Positions 10,297-32,707 of a stretch of 64,000 nucleotides of DNA are shown here, piece after piece. The notes under the pieces were generated by a model. The model saw nothing but the letters and a program-made list of their open reading frames with translations. It ran no database searches and had not been told where the DNA came from. The position numbers were made by a program, and so were the translations under genes. Positions within the stretch are counted from its first letter, which is position 1. Every line of letters begins with the position of its first letter. Source of the stretch: Escherichia phage IME178. Location: the sequence record NC_104190.1; one strand, given 5' to 3'.

Positions 10297-10710
10297 TTAA
10301 ACTAGTTCGACATGACCGCCATCATAGGTACCACGTTTTATTTCATCGTGATAGTCTCCAGAATTATTCCAATCAGCACCAAAACGAAGTTTAATACCTA
10401 GTTCTTTACCCGCTTGTTCAAAAGCCTTTTTAACCGCCCAAAATGCTTCTAAGTCATTCCAATCAATTTTGCCATTAATATATGGAGCAAAATCAAGCGC
10501 ATCCCCAGTAATATGCTTGCTTTTACTAGGATCTTTTAAAAATGAAGTACCATTAGCAATATTCTGGGCACTTTGTGCTACTGTACGGATACCCTGTACG
10601 ATTGTGAAATCATATGGGGATAATTCTAAAGCTCTACGAGCTACTTTTTGTAGCTCTGGCTTAACGGTAGCTAATTGTTTTTCGCTATTTTTACCAAATT
10701 TAAAACTCAT
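10297..10710 (-). CDS. lys: endolysin, L-alanyl-D-glutamate peptidase (M15-like)
   Basis: 137 aa, the size I recall for T5 endolysin; zinc-peptidase-like H and D residues. Confidence 0.75.
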   Translation of the reverse strand: MSFKFGKNSEKQLATVKPELQKVARRALELSPYDFTIVQGIRTVAQSAQNIANGTSFLKDPSKSKHITGDALDFAPYINGKIDWNDLEAFWAVKKAFEQAGKELGIKLRFGADWNNSGDYHDEIKRGTYDGGHVELV

Positions 10711-27428: not shown

Positions 27429-28376
27429 TTATTTATTACGCATATCCATGATCATTTGACCATCGTAGCCAGTACCTACCACAGTCTGAGGCACACCACC
27501 TTGATACTTCTGAGCACGGATCATTTCAACTTCCAGTTGCTTCCAGCGAATCATCTCAGGAGTAATGGTACGTTGCAATGCGGCGTTAGCTTCAGCTTCT
27601 TTCTTAGCTGCGTACAATTTAGCATCTGCGTCACGTTCATTAGCAATAGCTTGGTTGTTGCGAGCTTCACGATCTGCTTCTGCTTGTTTAACTTTTTGCT
27701 GTGCTTCCTGTTCAACACGAGCTAATTCAGCTTTAGCAGCATTAACTTGCTCTTCACGAACTTTGGTATTCTGTACCTGTTCCATGATTACCGGTGGCAA
27801 AGTAATATCCTGAAGGAACACCTGCTTAACTGTGTAACCATATGGGCGTGCATACTCTTCAACTTCCTGTTGAATTGCAGTTTGCAATTGAGCCTGAATT
27901 TTAGCATCAAACAAATCTTGTGCTTTAGGTACAGACTTACCAAACTCACGAATAGTAGACAGTAATTTTTCAGTTACATATTTGTCTAACGCTTGATCCT
28001 GAGTACCTGCATTAATACGGTTAATCGGTGCTTTAGAACCATCAAACTGCAACATAACAGTCAGGTCAACAGTGGATTTAAACTTATCCTGACTAGGAAC
28101 CTGAAGTTTATCTAATTTCAGAGCAATATCTTTAGTACTAAAAGTATCAAAAGAAGCAAAAGGATTTACAATATGAAAGCCCGGCAATACAGGGTTAGGA
28201 TCAACTTTACCCAAGAAAGTCTGGGTCTTAACAGTACCGTCTTGAACAACGGTATAGGAGTTAAGAGCTAGAACTAAACCTGCTAAACCAACTACAGCAC
28301 CAATACCCCAACGTTTAATAGTGCGAATTACTTTTTGCTCAGAAGTCAATTCTTTCATATTTTTAGTATTAAACAT
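27429..28376 (-). CDS. SPFH/band-7 (prohibitin/HflC-like) membrane protein
   Basis: N-terminal transmembrane anchor, SPFH-like core, long Ala/Glu/Gln-rich coiled coil. Confidence 0.65.
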   Translation of the reverse strand: MFNTKNMKELTSEQKVIRTIKRWGIGAVVGLAGLVLALNSYTVVQDGTVKTQTFLGKVDPNPVLPGFHIVNPFASFDTFSTKDIALKLDKLQVPSQDKFKSTVDLTVMLQFDGSKAPINRINAGTQDQALDKYVTEKLLSTIREFGKSVPKAQDLFDAKIQAQLQTAIQQEVEEYARPYGYTVKQVFLQDITLPPVIMEQVQNTKVREEQVNAAKAELARVEQEAQQKVKQAEADREARNNQAIANERDADAKLYAAKKEAEANAALQRTITPEMIRWKQLEVEMIRAQKYQGGVPQTVVGTGYDGQMIMDMRNK

Positions 28377-28410
28377 ATATTTCCTTTGTTTTAGCTACAG
28401 TTAATAAAAT

Positions 28411-28485
28411 TGGCCGAGGTGACAGGATTCGAACCTGCATAAAGGAATTTAGAAGACTCCTGCCTCTCCCTTAGACTACACCCCG
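28411..28485 (-). tRNA. tRNA-Arg (anticodon UCU)
   Basis: T-arm GCAGG-TTCGAAT-CCTGT, anticodon arm AGGAGT-CTTCTAA-ATTCCT, CCA. Confidence 0.65.
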
Positions 28486-28984
28486 TTTAAGTATTTTTAA
28501 GAACTCTCGTAAAAACTCTTAAAAATACAGACGATACCGGGAGAGTCATAAGTCTCACTCATTAAGTATTTCAAGACAAAATACAGTAACGTCTATTATT
28601 TTCCAGTTTAAGTCAGGGTGACTTAGTGGTTATGTCCTGCGGTATATTGAGGACTCGGTTAGGCTTGGGGTCATGACTTCCCGCCTTTTGCTGCTACTCA
28701 ACAGGAGTTATCGCGAATTACCTGTGCTATTGTGCACCATTAGTGGCATCTCTCATGCCAGCATTTCCCACTTTATGGATAGCTTGAAAAACTACTCCGA
28801 TATGGAGGAAAAACTTCACTATCTAGAATACCTTCTAAAGTTCTTCTTTAGCCTGGACATAGTTAAATCGTAATAAAACTATTCAGCAGACTGGTTGGTT
28901 AGTCTGGAACCAACTACCGCGTGGTTTAGGCAGTGCGCAACTAACCTCGGAAGCTTTTACGTTAAAAGCATCAGTTATCCAGTT

Positions 28985-29066
28985 CTTACCGACCGTAGGA
29001 TTCGAACCTACATCTTCCACCAGTTACGGCTTGATAATACCAATTATACTAGGACGGCAGTGTTAC
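28985..29066 (-). other. tRNA-like element, possible pseudo-tRNA
   Basis: T-arm GTAGG-TTCGAAT-CCTAC and D-arm-like AGTATAATTGG, but no anticodon stem found and no CCA. Confidence 0.3.
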
Positions 29067-29104
29067 TACATAAGTGATTTCCACACCCCACTATTTATAA
29101 ATTA

Positions 29105-29165
29105 GAGAGTAATTTCTATCTAATTTATGAATATATTATACAGAATTTATAAGCATTTAGCAAAT
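29105..29165 (-). promoter_or_regulatory. T5-type sigma70 promoter upstream of the tRNA cluster
   Basis: Minus-strand TTGCTA, 17 bp, TATAAT (29135-29140), conserved leader. Confidence 0.5.
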
Positions 29166-29171
29166 GAATTT

Positions 29172-29606
29172 TTAGAAAAATTCGCTAGCAATCAAAGCAG
29201 TTGTTTTACCATCATAACGCCCTGGAAACTCTGCCTTAATGGTTTTCATTAAGAGAGCTTTGGTGATACCGGGGTTTAGCTTAACCAGTTCTGCAAAATA
29301 CTTACGAATTTCAGTTTCAGTCAGTTGACTTGGCTGATACTCTTGCAGCATGGAATAAAGCAGTTGCTCATAGTCTACATCAGCAGGAACTTTCGTACCA
29401 ACTTTAATAGTGCGCTGTTTTGCATTTTCTAAAGCCTTAATCTGAGCTTTCAGATAGGCTACGAACTCGGTTCGAGTAATAATGTCTTTATCAATACGTT
29501 GCAAATCACCAATCATGGTCTGAAGATTAAGCGCCCGCTCTTTATCACCGTGAGTACGTGCTAGACTAAGCAGTCCACGAAGGGTCATTAGGATATTTTC
29601 ACCCAT
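29172..29606 (-). CDS. hypothetical protein (144 aa)
   Basis: ORF; ATG overlaps the stop of the upstream small ORF. Confidence 0.5.
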   Translation of the reverse strand: MGENILMTLRGLLSLARTHGDKERALNLQTMIGDLQRIDKDIITRTEFVAYLKAQIKALENAKQRTIKVGTKVPADVDYEQLLYSMLQEYQPSQLTETEIRKYFAELVKLNPGITKALLMKTIKAEFPGRYDGKTTALIASEFF

Positions 29607-29776
29607 TATTTCATCCCCAATGCTTGGTTAAAAGATTGCTCTGTCATAACTGCTGAGACTTTGGCGAAATCAAACTTTTTAGGGTTCGTAGTGATTTCAG
29701 CAACGTTAGAAGTTTTAACAGTTTTCGTAGTACGAATACCGCGAGTGTTAACACCAATAATTACAACTGATTTCAT
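29606..29776 (-). CDS. small hypothetical protein (56 aa)
   Basis: ATG 29776 with GAGAGGAAG RBS in the conserved leader; stop overlaps next gene's ATG. Confidence 0.4.
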   Translation of the reverse strand: MKSVVIIGVNTRGIRTTKTVKTSNVAEITTNPKKFDFAKVSAVMTEQSFNQALGMK

Positions 29777-29844
29777 ATTTCGCTTCCTCTCATTAATTTA
29801 TGGAAGTATTATACGGAAATTTAAGTATTTAAGCAAGTAAATTT

Positions 29845-30312
29845 TTAAGTTTTAGTGACAACAGGTTTATAAAACGTATGTCCCTTAATCTTAGTTGTTT
29901 TCTTAAATTTCTTTGTCCAGTAAGGTTTATCTTTACCACTATGGAAGTATAGTGCTCCATGTGTAGGATCTTGTGGTAAATCAACGTAGTATATCACTCT
30001 AGCTAAATTCTTAGCGGTTTGCCAAGCCTCATCAGTTTTATCAACTTTTGGTCTCTTAGATACCCAAGAGAACTGGTTAGACTGATATACTACTTTACAG
30101 TAGGAATCTGGGAATTTACCGGAGTTTACACGGTTTTTAGTAACATGTGCAATCGCCGTCATCCCCTTTATGCCCTCACCACGACTTTCGAAATAGATAT
30201 TTTTAGCAATGCAATCTATTTCTTTTGCATCGTGCGATGCCTGACTACTAAAGCTGAAGGTAAGGGCAGCTACTAAAAGCAAAGCTGCCTTCATTCTTTT
30301 TACTCCTGCCAA
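29845..30312 (-). CDS. secreted cell-wall hydrolase (SleB-like)
   Basis: Signal peptide MKAALLLVAALTFSFSSQA; body resembles SleB/hydrolase-2 family by memory. Confidence 0.55.
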   Translation of the reverse strand: MAGVKRMKAALLLVAALTFSFSSQASHDAKEIDCIAKNIYFESRGEGIKGMTAIAHVTKNRVNSGKFPDSYCKVVYQSNQFSWVSKRPKVDKTDEAWQTAKNLARVIYYVDLPQDPTHGALYFHSGKDKPYWTKKFKKTTKIKGHTFYKPVVTKT

Positions 30313-30617
30313 TCATATTCAACACGATTGGGGTTTTCTTTATACCCTAAGTCAAGCAAATCATTACGCATAGTTTGCTTAGCTACTGGGTTCGAGGTTA
30401 CTAGTACCACTTTCTTTGGTCTCTGCCCAAATTCTAAGAGTAAACGAAGAATTTGATAACCTTCCATACCATCTACAGCCAAGTCATTATCCATATAAAC
30501 GAAATGGCCTGTGGTATCAGTTTTATTCAGAAACTCTATAGCGGCTTCTGGGGTTCGAATGATAATGTCCATTCCGTGAAGATTACGCACATCATCAATC
30601 AAAATATGAAAAGTCAT
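30300..30617 (-). CDS. stand-alone receiver-like (CheY/REC-like) domain protein
   Basis: Alternating beta/alpha pattern with DD (LIDDV), D (YMDNDL) and T (VVLVTS) at REC positions. Confidence 0.45.
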   Translation of the reverse strand: MTFHILIDDVRNLHGMDIIIRTPEAAIEFLNKTDTTGHFVYMDNDLAVDGMEGYQILRLLLEFGQRPKKVVLVTSNPVAKQTMRNDLLDLGYKENPNRVEYDWQE

Positions 30618-31059
30618 AATAGCCTCGTTTCATCAATTTAAAAATATATTATACAGATAACTTAGTAAATTAGCAAATACATTTTTAAATTGTGAAACTA
30701 GTAAACCGATAAACAGCCTAGAGGCGCCACAGGCCATATCTTATGAGCCATGTACCTTTAATCTAGGGTTTGAATCATCAACGAATACTTTGCATCTTTT
30801 AGCTTTAGAAGTTTAGAAGTTTGAGTTCTTTAAACTTTTCAGCTTTCATACTTAAATGTTGATCTTTGAAGTTGTGTCGGTAATATCAACGACGCTTTGT
30901 TCTTACGTGTCAGCTTAAAAGGCTGGTGTAATAAACATAATCTCCAATAGATTATACTTTATAGTATGGTCAGCGGTCCTATTTAACCTCGTATTTCAAC
31001 CGCTGCTGCGAGGTAAGATGCTTGGGCTTTCGTCTACCGATTTACTAGCTTTTAAATTA

Positions 31060-31413
31060 TTACTCTACTTCAATGAAGGTAGAGGCGTTAGACTCGGACA
31101 GAACAAAGTCAACATTTGTTGCAAAGTCCTGATATTCCTCGTCATGCTGCTTAATCAGCTTTTCCAGTTCCAGCGGATCAATCAAGAATGGAGTATTCTT
31201 GAGTTCCAGCAGGTTGAGCTGCATTTTAACTTCATCTTCGGAAGTTTTTCTTATCGCGGGTAGCCATGCTATCCTGCAAACGCTCATATTTAGCATCAAA
31301 CTGTGCTTTCTGCGTATTAAACTTAACCGTGGCGGCATGGAACTGCTTACGCATGTTAGCCAGCAGTTGGGCTTTAAGTTCCATAGAACGCTTAGCTTCA
31401 ATTGCTTCCGCAA
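31060..31413 (-). CDS. hypothetical protein, probable C-terminal fragment
   Basis: Overlaps the upstream ORF by 182 nt in another frame; frames meet at an A5 run. Confidence 0.4.
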   Translation of the reverse strand: MRKQLKLSVLWNLKPNCWLTCVSSSMPPRLSLIRRKHSLMLNMSVCRIAWLPAIRKTSEDEVKMQLNLLELKNTPFLIDPLELEKLIKQHDEEYQDFATNVDFVLSESNASTFIEVE

Positions 31414-31699
31414 CAGTCATCTTACGAGAGCCAATCTCAACGATTGTTTCCGCATTGCTTTTAATCAGAGCAGCTTTGATACGATCACGCTGGGACATCA
31501 TATCCAGCAGAGACTGGAAATCAGTCTTAATACGAGTAGACAGATCAGCTACTTCGATTGCAGCGCCAACTACAACCTGGTTTTTATCCTTACCTTCACC
31601 AACAGCGATCAGAAGCTGCTGTTCAGTAGCTTTACGGATTTTAGCTTCCAGAGATTTGATAGTTGCCAGAGCGCGAGTTTTAGAAATACGAGTAGTCAT
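31232..31699 (-). CDS. hypothetical coiled-coil protein (155 aa)
   Basis: ORF with charged helical composition. Confidence 0.5.
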   Translation of the reverse strand: MTTRISKTRALATIKSLEAKIRKATEQQLLIAVGEGKDKNQVVVGAAIEVADLSTRIKTDFQSLLDMMSQRDRIKAALIKSNAETIVEIGSRKMTVAEAIEAKRSMELKAQLLANMRKQFHAATVKFNTQKAQFDAKYERLQDSMATRDKKNFRR

Positions 31700-32005: not shown

Positions 32006-32707
32006 TCAAATTTTCATTTTTTCGATCATAGCTGCAACACAATAGCTTTCAACTAAGGCATCAAATGCAGGGTCATGCTTAGCTGGATAGATCCCATAAC
32101 GAATAGTGTCCATCTTCTCCATTTTAGCTATTGCCCAGCTAATACCTTCGGTCTCTAGAGCTTTATAACTGTACCCAGCTTGCATCCAGAGATTACGAAG
32201 AGATCGAACATTACCCAAATTCCAGAATTTCCACGGAACTACCTCTTCATTAGTTCCAGCATGGAACGTGTTTGCAGAGTAGATAGTCATATCAAACTCT
32301 GGACCATTGCCATAATACAAAGCATTTTCGCCTAGAGCCAACTCCATAATATTTTGAGCCATAGAGAAGGCAGCATAGTTTGAGCCAAATTTATTAGTGC
32401 AATTATGTTTACCATTTTGGAAGGCAATCAGTTTTGGATTACGTTCTTTCATGGCTTCCATAATGTGGATAGCAGACGGGCTATTTTTAGCTTGATCCAT
32501 CCAGAATGCTAGAGTAGATGCTGTAACTTTGGCACCAGAATTAAGCTGATCCTGCACATCCAAAGTAGCAAATACTAAGTCAGGGTCTTTATCAATCCCA
32601 TGCATAGCCACAAAAGCGAAAGAAGGCATTACGATATGAGTAGTACCACAATCTCCTGGAGTTCCTAGAGATTCAATATCTAGCATACCAAATGGTTTTA
32701 CTTTCAT
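32006..32707 (-). CDS. DEDD-type 3-prime to 5-prime exonuclease (DexA-like)
   Basis: N-terminal MLDIESLG (Exo I-like DxE) and C-terminal H/D motifs, like T4 DexA. Confidence 0.55.
   Translation of the reverse strand: MKVKPFGMLDIESLGTPGDCGTTHIVMPSFAFVAMHGIDKDPDLVFATLDVQDQLNSGAKVTASTLAFWMDQAKNSPSAIHIMEAMKERNPKLIAFQNGKHNCTNKFGSNYAAFSMAQNIMELALGENALYYGNGPEFDMTIYSANTFHAGTNEEVVPWKFWNLGNVRSLRNLWMQAGYSYKALETEGISWAIAKMEKMDTIRYGIYPAKHDPAFDALVESYCVAAMIEKMKI

What the first reader, a model, noticed from the sequence alone, without database searches (positions are those of the whole stretch)
29845..30617. Secreted SleB-like cell-wall hydrolase coupled to a stand-alone receiver-like domain
A 105-aa ORF with REC-like acidic pocket residues overlaps by 13 nt the start of a signal-peptide-bearing cell-wall hydrolase-like protein, distinct from the M15 endolysin at 10297-10710. 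A phospho-acceptor-like domain next to a second peptidoglycan hydrolase is an unusual pairing.
Basis: inference. Interest (0 to 1): 0.45.

Follow-up and report, generated by a model that had tools for sequence, protein, structure and literature searches.

The report
T5-like phage cREC gene beside SleB-like hydrolase
These are two already catalogued early genes of a T5-like phage, a small receiver-fold protein of the uncharacterised 'cREC' family and an exported SleB-type cell-wall hydrolase. They sit side by side only in this phage lineage, so the pairing looks like shared gene order rather than a functional module.

Summary
The window is a Tequintavirus (T5-like) genome, 98-99.6% identical to phages PK7 and AKFV33.

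**What is there**
- Both ORFs are real and lie on the minus strand. They are the homologues of T5.084 and T5.083.
- The 105-aa protein belongs to Pfam cREC_REC (E=5e-15). Its model folds as a receiver domain and keeps the acidic pocket. It has no conserved Lys, no Response_reg match, no output domain and no kinase partner.
- The downstream protein is a Hydrolase_2 (SleB/CwlJ catalytic domain, E=2e-25). It has the catalytic YxExRGE glutamate and a signal-peptide-like N-terminus. It lies 19 kb from the holin/M15-endolysin/spanin cassette.

**What does not hold**
- The 13-nt overlap is probably an artefact of picking the TTG start. An ATG at 30294 with a GGAG 8 nt upstream leaves a 5-nt gap.
- The adjacency is confined to T5-like phages.
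  - In Pectobacterium phage My1 the two genes are 2.8 kb apart.
  - The Klebsiella and Providencia T5 relatives examined have the hydrolase with no cREC within the roughly 3-kb flanks.
  - None of 27 cREC loci elsewhere has a Hydrolase_2 within 4-6 kb.
  - Of 68 other hydrolase loci, 3 have a cREC nearby and none has one adjacent.

**Verdict**
The domain calls are right, but functional coupling is not supported. Both exact proteins are already in public databases under these names. Interest is low.

The parts
30648..30676 (-). Early sigma-70-type promoter (TTGCTA-17 nt-TATAAT) upstream of the cREC gene. It probably drives both genes.
   Evidence: Consensus scan, 10 of 12 matches. The sequence was read directly. 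The homologous site is annotated as a T5-consensus promoter in AKFV33.
30300..30617 (-). cREC-family stand-alone divergent receiver domain, 105 aa (homologue of T5.084 and AKFV33 orf082). SD GAGG at 30626-30623. Conserved DD at residues 8-9 and DxD at 43-45.
   Evidence: Pfam PF20274, E=5.2e-15; phrog_1479, E=1e-29. AF2 model with pLDDT 91.5. Foldseek top hits are receiver domains. Invariant residues. The exact sequence is in NCBI.
30303..30306 (-). Shine-Dalgarno GGAG for the hydrolase gene. It lies inside the last codons of the cREC gene, 8 nt before the ATG at 30294.
   Evidence: Sequence read directly.
29845..30294 (-). Exported SleB/CwlJ-type peptidoglycan hydrolase, 149 aa (homologue of T5.083 and AKFV33 orf081). 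Catalytic-motif Glu36 in YFESRGE. Cys28 and Cys66 are conserved in the Demerecviridae homologues.
   Evidence: Pfam PF07486, E=2.4e-25; phrog_938. PDB 4F55 and 4FET, E about 1e-8. Alignment A2. TIGR02869 scores only 50 bits against a cutoff of 236.5.
30238..30294 (-). Predicted Sec signal peptide (residues 1-19, MKAALLLVAALTFSFSSQA, with cleavage expected before Ser20).
   Evidence: Read from the sequence. The same n/h/c organisation is seen in all 9 homologues. No signal-peptide predictor was available.
29807..29836 (-). Next T5-consensus promoter (TTGCTT-17 nt-TATAATA). It starts 8 nt after the hydrolase stop codon and marks the end of the two-gene unit. No terminator lies in between.
   Evidence: Sequence read directly. 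The homologous site is annotated in AKFV33. The terminator scan found none on this strand.

Best explanation
These are two functionally independent early genes of a T5-like phage. They share one early promoter and are tightly packed: a 5-nt spacer, with the ribosome-binding site of the second gene inside the end of the first.

**Gene 1** makes a small cytoplasmic protein of the cREC family. It has a minimal receiver fold that keeps the Asp-Asp / Asp pocket but has lost the features of a phosphorylation switch.
- Inferred from the family's published gene contexts: it acts as a phosphoesterase on a cyclic-phosphate or ADP-ribose-derived nucleotide.
- Candidate substrates are 2',3'-cyclic RNA ends, ADPR>P, or cADPR-type immune signals.
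- This would place it in RNA repair or counter-defence. The substrate is unresolved.

**Gene 2** makes a Sec-exported, signal-peptide-bearing SleB/CwlJ-type muramidase or lytic transglycosylase.
- It would act on periplasmic peptidoglycan.
- It is additional to the holin / M15 endolysin / spanin cassette 19 kb away.

**The adjacency** is inherited gene order in Markadamsvirinae-type phages, not a conserved module.

**Shown:** family membership, fold, motifs, gene order and its distribution.
**Inferred:** the enzymatic activities, export and timing of expression.
For: **Identity of the window and genes**
- The window is a Tequintavirus; the genes correspond to T5.084 and T5.083.

**Gene 1 (cREC)**
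- cREC_REC scores 56 bits; there is no Response_reg hit.
- The AF2 model has pLDDT 91.5 and matches receiver domains with TM 0.55-0.59.
- D8, D9, D17, R21, D43, D45 and G53 are invariant, and there is no conserved Lys.
- The family has 437 cluster representatives, and nearly all of the 150 best listed are stand-alone proteins of about 100 aa.
- No Hydrolase_2 fusion was found among the 10 longer members tested.

**Published and observed contexts of cREC**
- RNA ligases, kinases, Nudix and sirtuin; never a histidine kinase (PMC7824862, PMC9503650).
- Within 2.5 kb of cREC in other viral contigs: T4 RNA ligase, AAA_33 kinase, Metallophos and Tad3.
- Two Sequestin (anti-Thoeris sponge) genes flank cREC in one divergent T5-like contig (PMC12265669).
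- Vibrio T4-like phages carry cREC near a TROVE-like RNA-binding gene, and in phage 6E35.1a near a tRNA cluster, with no hydrolase.

**Gene 2 (hydrolase)**
- establish the family, the catalytic motif and the signal-peptide-like N-terminus.
- The lysis cassette lies elsewhere.

**Pairing test**
- Adjacent in 11 of 11 T5-like IMG/VR loci. Adjacent in three of the four divergent T5-like contigs examined; in the fourth a Sequestin gene separates them.
- 2.8 kb and 5 genes apart in My1.
- The hydrolase has no cREC neighbour in the Klebsiella and Providencia T5 relatives.
- 0 of 27 non-Demerecviridae cREC loci have a Hydrolase_2 within 4-6 kb.
Against: - Three of 68 non-T5 hydrolase loci, representing two lineages, carry a divergent cREC 1.1-3.3 kb away. 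This is somewhat more than a naive chance estimate and could hint at a loose link.
- Co-transcription with a 5-nt spacer is the kind of arrangement seen for functional partners.
- No activity of any cREC protein, and no activity of the T5-type hydrolase, has been measured in the literature I could search.
- Export was judged by eye only.
Confidence: 0.72

Rival explanations
1. The first reader's module: the REC-like protein is a phospho-acceptor, or nucleotide-binding, regulator functionally coupled to the secreted hydrolase. It would control the hydrolase's synthesis, export or activity.
For: - The two genes share a promoter and are 5 nt apart.
- The acidic pocket is retained.
- The pair stays adjacent in T5-like phages down to 57% cREC identity.
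- cREC lies within 1-3.3 kb of a Hydrolase_2 gene in two other lineages.
Against: - No Response_reg match, no conserved Lys, no output domain and no kinase.
- The pair is uncoupled in My1, and no cREC lies near the hydrolase in the Klebsiella and Providencia relatives examined.
- 0 of 27 other cREC loci have the hydrolase nearby.
- In one T5-like contig a Sequestin gene is inserted between the two genes.
- The products would be in different compartments: one has no signal peptide, the other has one.
Confidence: 0.06
2. The cREC protein is specifically an anti-defence enzyme that destroys TIR/Thoeris-type cADPR or ADPR-derived immune signals. It is not an RNA-end repair enzyme, and the hydrolase is unrelated to it.
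For: - Iyer et al. predict cADPR or ADPR>P processing (PMC7824862, PMC9503650).
- Two Sequestin 3'cADPR sponge genes flank cREC in L003 (PMC12265669).
- A Tad3 (type I Thoeris inhibitor) gene lies within 2.5 kb of cREC in one viral contig.
Against: - These are single occurrences.
- Other neighbours point to RNA repair (T4 RNA ligase, kinase, calcineurin-like phosphoesterase) or to nucleotide metabolism.
- In T5-like and Vibrio phages the gene sits by tRNA clusters.
- There are no experimental data.
Confidence: 0.25
3. The SleB-like protein is not an auxiliary lysis enzyme. It is instead an early periplasmic wall-remodelling or superinfection-related factor. An inactive binding protein is a further possibility.
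For: - It is transcribed from an early-type promoter, far from the holin/endolysin/spanin genes.
- It is exported independently of a holin through a signal peptide.
- It is conserved at this position in the Demerecviridae and T5-like relatives examined, including one that lacks cREC nearby.
Against: - The catalytic Glu and the YxExRGE motif are invariant, which argues for an active enzyme.
- Databases label it an endolysin, but by homology only.
- No phenotype is known.
Confidence: 0.35

Closest known systems
Phage T5 genes T5.084 and T5.083 (AKFV33 orf082 and orf081)
   Same: - Same two genes, in the same order, with the same promoter layout. The region is 98.3% identical to AKFV33 at the DNA level.
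- The exact protein sequences are already in NCBI and UniRef.
   Different: Nothing of substance. This window carries a variant identical to the phage IME178 protein (cREC) and the SP15 protein (hydrolase).
cREC (cyclic-phosphate processing Receiver) family, Pfam PF20274 (Iyer, Anantharaman, Krishnan, Burroughs, Aravind 2021)
   Same: - HMM match above the family cutoff.
- Stand-alone protein of about 100 aa, encoded by a phage.
- Conserved Asp-Asp and Asp residues, and a receiver-like fold.
   Different: - Its immediate neighbour here is a peptidoglycan hydrolase, not the RNA ligase, Nudix, sirtuin or kinase genes described for the family.
- The activity is still untested for the whole family.
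Canonical stand-alone receivers (CheY, Spo0F; Pfam Response_reg)
   Same: - A flavodoxin-like alpha/beta fold, with an acidic pocket at the C-terminal ends of strands 1 and 3.
- These proteins are the best structural matches.
   Different: - No sequence-profile match.
- The helix after strand 1 and the last helix are missing in the model.
- No conserved Lys. The Thr/Ser position is variable, while an Asn is conserved.
- Extra invariant Arg and Asp residues (R11, D17, R21).
- No kinase partner.
Bacillus SleB / CwlJ spore cortex-lytic enzymes (PDB 4F55, 4FET)
   Same: The catalytic Hydrolase_2 domain, including the conserved glutamate motif.
   Different: - No N-terminal peptidoglycan-binding domain.
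- Far below the SleB equivalog cutoff (50 against 236.5 bits).
- A Gram-negative host with no spore cortex.
- A pair of Cys residues that the Bacillus enzymes lack.
Sec-exported (signal-peptide) phage endolysins such as Lys44 of Oenococcus phage fOg44 (from my own knowledge, not checked here)
   Same: A wall hydrolase that reaches the wall through the host Sec system rather than through a holin lesion.
   Different: - A different catalytic family and a different kind of host.
- Here a complete holin/endolysin/spanin set also exists, so this enzyme is a second, separately placed one.

Membership tests
cREC_REC (PF20274) | Profile match above Pfam's gathering score | tested here: met
   56.3 bits against a cutoff of 27, E=5.2e-15, covering 85 of 88 profile positions.
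cREC_REC (PF20274) | Receiver-like Rossmannoid fold | tested here: met
   The AF2 model has pLDDT 91.5 and pTM 0.85. The Foldseek PDB top hits are DesR, BfmR, GacS-D1, PmrA and NtrX receiver domains, with TM 0.55-0.59 and probability 0.95-1.0.
cREC_REC (PF20274) | Conserved catalytic aspartates shared with receivers | tested here: met
   D8, D9, D43 and D45 are invariant in 54 members that are 30-65% identical to the window protein.
cREC_REC (PF20274) | Not associated with histidine kinases; found in phages with RNA-repair or NAD/ADPR genes | tested here: inconclusive
   - No kinase family appears among the top families of 119 neighbour ORFs.
- RNA ligase, kinase, Metallophos and Tad3 each occur once.
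- In this window the neighbours are a hydrolase, tRNA genes, a YqeY-like protein and an Rv2179c-like exoribonuclease.
cREC_REC (PF20274) | Hydrolysis of cyclic phosphate or cADPR-type substrates | not testable with these tools
   This is a prediction only (PMC7824862, PMC9503650). No experimental paper was found.
Two-component receiver (Response_reg, PF00072) | Profile match | tested here: not met
   No Response_reg hit was reported in a search with a cutoff of E=1. A profile search of PDB sequences gave no receiver.
Two-component receiver (Response_reg, PF00072) | Conserved Lys after strand 5 and Thr/Ser after strand 4 | tested here: not met
   No conserved Lys anywhere in the C-terminal third. 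Position 74 varies (T, S, M, A, G, N, D), while N76 is nearly invariant.
Two-component receiver (Response_reg, PF00072) | Cognate histidine kinase or output domain | tested here: not met
   It is a single-domain 105-aa protein. None of the window genes I scanned or the AKFV33 annotations I examined around it is a kinase.
Hydrolase_2 (SleB/CwlJ catalytic domain, PF07486) | Profile match and similarity to solved SleB catalytic domains | tested here: met
   89.5 bits against a cutoff of 27, covering 100 of 100 profile positions. 4F55 at E=2.6e-8 and 4FET at E=1.1e-7.
Hydrolase_2 (SleB/CwlJ catalytic domain, PF07486) | Catalytic glutamate motif (Y-x-E-[AS]-R-G-E) | tested here: met
   YFESRGE aligns with YGESRGE of SleB. 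Y34, E36 and R38 are invariant in 9 phage homologues. That this Glu is the catalytic residue comes from my own knowledge of the SleB structure papers.
SleB proper (TIGR02869 equivalog) | Score above the equivalog cutoff; N-terminal peptidoglycan-binding domain | tested here: not met
   50.3 bits against a cutoff of 236.5. Only profile positions 79-201 are matched, and the N-terminus here is just a signal peptide.
Holin-dependent endolysin of a lysis cassette | Encoded next to holin and spanin genes | tested here: not met
   The holin, M15 endolysin and spanins lie about 19 kb away. They correspond to AKFV33 orf041-046, near window position 10.3 kb.
SAR (signal-anchor-release) endolysin | Uncleaved, weakly hydrophobic, Gly/Ala-rich N-terminal membrane segment | tested here: inconclusive
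   By eye, the hydrophobic segment is short (about 13 residues) and is followed by an S-Q-A cleavage-type site. That resembles a cleavable signal peptide. No predictor was run.

The most novel reading that the evidence does not exclude
The receiver-fold cREC enzyme and the exported SleB-like hydrolase form a loose functional pair. For example, the cytoplasmic enzyme might process a nucleotide or muropeptide-derived product or signal that arises when the phage remodels the wall. Their repeated proximity would then not be mere gene order. They are adjacent in T5-like phages, and 1-3 kb apart in My1 and in two unrelated viral lineages.
Probability: 0.06. Interest if true: 0.6.

Novelty: already known. 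Interest (0 to 1): 0.17.

Why it matters
As found, it matters little. Both genes are standard, already named components of T5-like genomes.

What remains open is biochemical.
- No cREC protein has ever been assayed, and T5-like phages are easy to manipulate. T5.084 would therefore be a convenient entry point for testing the predicted cyclic-phosphate or cADPR phosphoesterase activity and any counter-defence role.
- It is also unknown why a phage with a complete lysis cassette secretes a second wall hydrolase from an early promoter.

Tried and rejected
- **Profile against one CheY sequence.** Uninformative: probability 2%.
- **Sequence search of PDB with the cREC profile.** Only insignificant resolvase hits. 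The fold search was needed instead.
Bacterial and prophage contexts of cREC were therefore not sampled.
- **Sub-family scans.** They added only 9 loci.
- **Rfam on 28300-31300.** Nothing inside the finding.
- **Literature searches for cREC experiments, or for tests of the T5-type SleB-like protein.** Only annotations and predictions were found.
- **Hidden cREC upstream of the hydrolase in Providencia PR1 (gp123) or phage V5 (ORF3).** Rejected: neither has any Pfam hit.
- **Lipoprotein reading of the hydrolase.** Rejected: there is no lipobox Cys.
- **Not done.** Structure prediction of the hydrolase was skipped because the sequence evidence was already decisive. The metagenome scan was also not run.

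Full report
**Where the window comes from.** The 2.5 kb around the finding matches 447 phage records. The best are Salmonella phage PK7 (99.6%) and Escherichia phage AKFV33 (98.3%), a Tequintavirus of the Demerecviridae. The window also carries 22 tRNA genes, as T5-like phages do. In AKFV33 the two genes are orf082 and orf081, annotated as similar to T5.084 and T5.083.

**The observation.**
- Two minus-strand ORFs are present: 30617..30300 (105 aa) and 30312..29845 (155 aa from the first TTG).
- On the coding strand the junction reads ...TGG CAG GAG TAA aaaga ATG AAG....
- The ATG at 30294 has a GGAG 8 nt upstream; the TTG at 30312 has no such site.
- The related record examined (AKFV33) annotates the 149-aa form, the exact 149-aa protein is in public databases, and all nine aligned homologues begin at this Met.
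- The reported 13-nt overlap is therefore most likely an artefact of taking the longest ORF. The real arrangement is a 5-nt spacer, with the second gene's ribosome-binding site inside the last codons of the first.
- A TTGCTA-17-TATAAT promoter lies at 30676-30648.
- A T5-consensus TTGCTT-17-TATAATA promoter lies at 29836-29807, just after the hydrolase stop codon. Both sites are annotated at the homologous positions in AKFV33.
- No terminator-like site lies between them on this strand. The two genes thus look like one short early transcription unit.

**The REC-like protein.**
- It matches Pfam cREC_REC (PF20274) at E=5.2e-15, which is 56 bits against a cutoff of 27. It also matches phrog_1479. 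It gives no Response_reg hit.
- A profile of close homologues finds 437 cluster representatives among 1.84 billion proteins. Nearly all of the 150 best listed are stand-alone proteins of about 100 aa.
- Ten longer members were scanned. They showed only cREC plus, in one case, an HNH nuclease domain. None carried a wall hydrolase.
- The AlphaFold2 model is confident (pLDDT 91.5). It shows five strands and three helices, with no helix after strand 1 and no terminal helix.
- Its best PDB matches are response-regulator receiver domains (DesR, BfmR, GacS D1, PmrA, NtrX), with TM 0.55-0.59.
- Across 54 members that are 30-65% identical to the window protein, D8, D9, D17, R21, D43, D45 and G53 are invariant. 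R11 and N76 are nearly invariant.
- There is no conserved Lys, and the Thr/Ser position varies.
- The family was defined by Iyer et al. (PMC7824862; extended in PMC9503650). They describe a receiver-derived domain that is never found with histidine kinases and is linked to RNA ligases, kinases, Nudix, sirtuins and WYL sensors. They predict that it opens cyclic phosphates in RNA ends or in ADP-ribose derivatives, and they state that it is experimentally uncharacterised.
- I found no later experimental work.
- NCBI and UniRef already name cluster members 'cyclic-phosphate processing receiver domain-containing protein'. The exact sequence is on record from phage IME178.

**The hydrolase.**
- It matches Pfam Hydrolase_2 over the whole profile (E=2.4e-25) and phrog_938.
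- It aligns with the solved catalytic domains of Bacillus SleB (4F55, 4FET; E about 1e-8). Its YFESRGE lies over the YGESRGE of SleB.
- Y34, E36 and R38 are invariant in nine phage homologues.
- It is not SleB proper. It scores 50 bits against the 236.5-bit equivalog cutoff and lacks the N-terminal wall-binding domain.
- All nine homologues start with a basic residue, a hydrophobic run of about 13 residues and a small-x-small site, here SQA|S. Cys28 and Cys66 are conserved in the Demerecviridae and T5-like homologues. Both observations fit export to the periplasm. This is my reading; no predictor was run.
- The canonical lysis genes (holin, M15 endolysin, spanins) lie about 19 kb away.
- The presence of a second, SleB-like 'endolysin' in T5-like phages has been noted in print, without any functional test (PMC3326045, PMC11180984).

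**Is the pairing meaningful? Within T5-like phages.**
- The genes are adjacent in all 11 T5-like IMG/VR loci.
- Three of the four divergent T5-like contigs examined, with cREC identity down to 57%, also have them adjacent.
- In the fourth contig (L003) a Sequestin gene lies between them and a second Sequestin lies upstream.

**Is the pairing meaningful? Other Demerecviridae and T5 relatives.**
- In Pectobacterium phage My1 the cREC gene lies 2.8 kb and five genes away from the hydrolase.
- Klebsiella phage phi1_146058 and Providencia phage PR1 have the hydrolase at the same place with no cREC in the roughly 3-kb flanks examined.

**Is the pairing meaningful? Outside the family.**
- Vibrio T4-like phages carry cREC next to hypothetical genes and a TROVE-like RNA-binding protein. 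In phage 6E35.1a it also lies near a tRNA cluster.
- None of 27 further cREC loci has a Hydrolase_2 within 4-6 kb. These represent about 22 distinct loci.
- By tblastn the hydrolase occurs in 1376 phage records and this cREC in 492.
- Going the other way, 3 of 68 non-T5 hydrolase loci hold a clearly recognisable but divergent cREC. These represent two lineages and share only the hydrolase with this window. The cREC lies 1.1 kb (L056, L057) or 3.3 kb (L045) from the hydrolase and is never adjacent.
- That is a little more than I would expect naively. I cannot put a proper null on it, because accessory early genes tend to cluster.

**What cREC sits next to elsewhere.**
- Among 119 ORFs within 2.5 kb of cREC in other viral contigs, the families are mixed.
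- They include T4 RNA ligase, an AAA_33 kinase, a calcineurin-like phosphoesterase, an HD domain, Tad3 (a Thoeris inhibitor), an Rv2179c-like exoribonuclease and nucleotide-metabolism enzymes.
- Among the 27 immediately flanking ORFs no family dominates.
- Sequestin is an experimentally verified 3'cADPR sponge (PMC12265669).
- These contexts fit the published RNA-repair or nucleotide-signal reading and give no support to a wall-related role.

**Conclusion.**
- The inference of a coupled phospho-acceptor and hydrolase module is not supported.
- The most economical account is two unrelated early functions packed behind one promoter in one phage lineage:
  - a cytoplasmic cREC enzyme, with substrate unknown, probably in RNA repair or counter-defence;
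  - a Sec-exported second wall hydrolase.
- Both are already catalogued, and their biochemical roles remain untested.

Noticed in passing
window 31060-31699 (-), indel near 31249: The homologue of T5.085 / AKFV33 orf083 (212 aa, labelled 'tail fiber protein' in RefSeq) is split into two overlapping ORFs. The cause is one extra A in a homopolymer: AAAAA here against AAAA in AKFV33. This is either a frameshifted gene or a sequencing error.
   Followed up: partly
window 28987-29058 (-): Rfam's tRNA model scores 35.5 bits here (gathering score 29), but ARAGORN did not call a tRNA. It may be a 23rd tRNA or a tRNA-like remnant just downstream of the YqeY-like gene. Some relatives have about 146 bp more DNA in this region, and one of them annotates a tRNA-Ser.
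   Followed up: no
L003 3763-3993 and 4331-4546: In a divergent T5-like metagenomic contig, two PF21825 (Sequestin, anti-Thoeris 3'cADPR sponge) genes flank the cREC gene. One of them separates cREC from the hydrolase gene.
   Followed up: partly
L056 2365-4390; L045 3800-8026: Two viral contigs share only the hydrolase with this window. They carry a divergent cREC 1.1 kb upstream (L056, L057) or 3.3 kb downstream (L045) of a membrane-anchored or signal-bearing Hydrolase_2. L056 also has a GDS-motif ORF just before the hydrolase and an ORF about 1.4 kb after it that looked Band_7/SPFH-like to my eye (not scanned), reminiscent of the T5-like layout.
   Followed up: partly
window 32006-32707 (-): The homologue of T5.087 is annotated 'putative metallopeptidase' in AKFV33, T5 and My1. 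It actually matches the Rv2179c-like 3'-5' exoribonuclease family (E=8e-8), so the annotation is probably wrong.
   Followed up: no
window 27429-28376 (-): The homologue of T5.080 is annotated 'lipoprotein'. It is a Band_7/SPFH-domain protein (E=3e-17).
   Followed up: no
P0033 (273 aa); hit H76 in Salmonella phage Kenya-K44: Some T5-like phages carry an HNH_3 nuclease domain fused upstream of the cREC domain. In Kenya-K44 the cREC match lies inside a gene annotated as an HNH endonuclease. This suggests a homing-endonuclease insertion or fusion at this locus.
   Followed up: no
L023 3995-4634: A viral contig has a second, weaker cREC-like ORF (E=1e-7) directly after the first, which may be a tandem duplication.
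   Followed up: no
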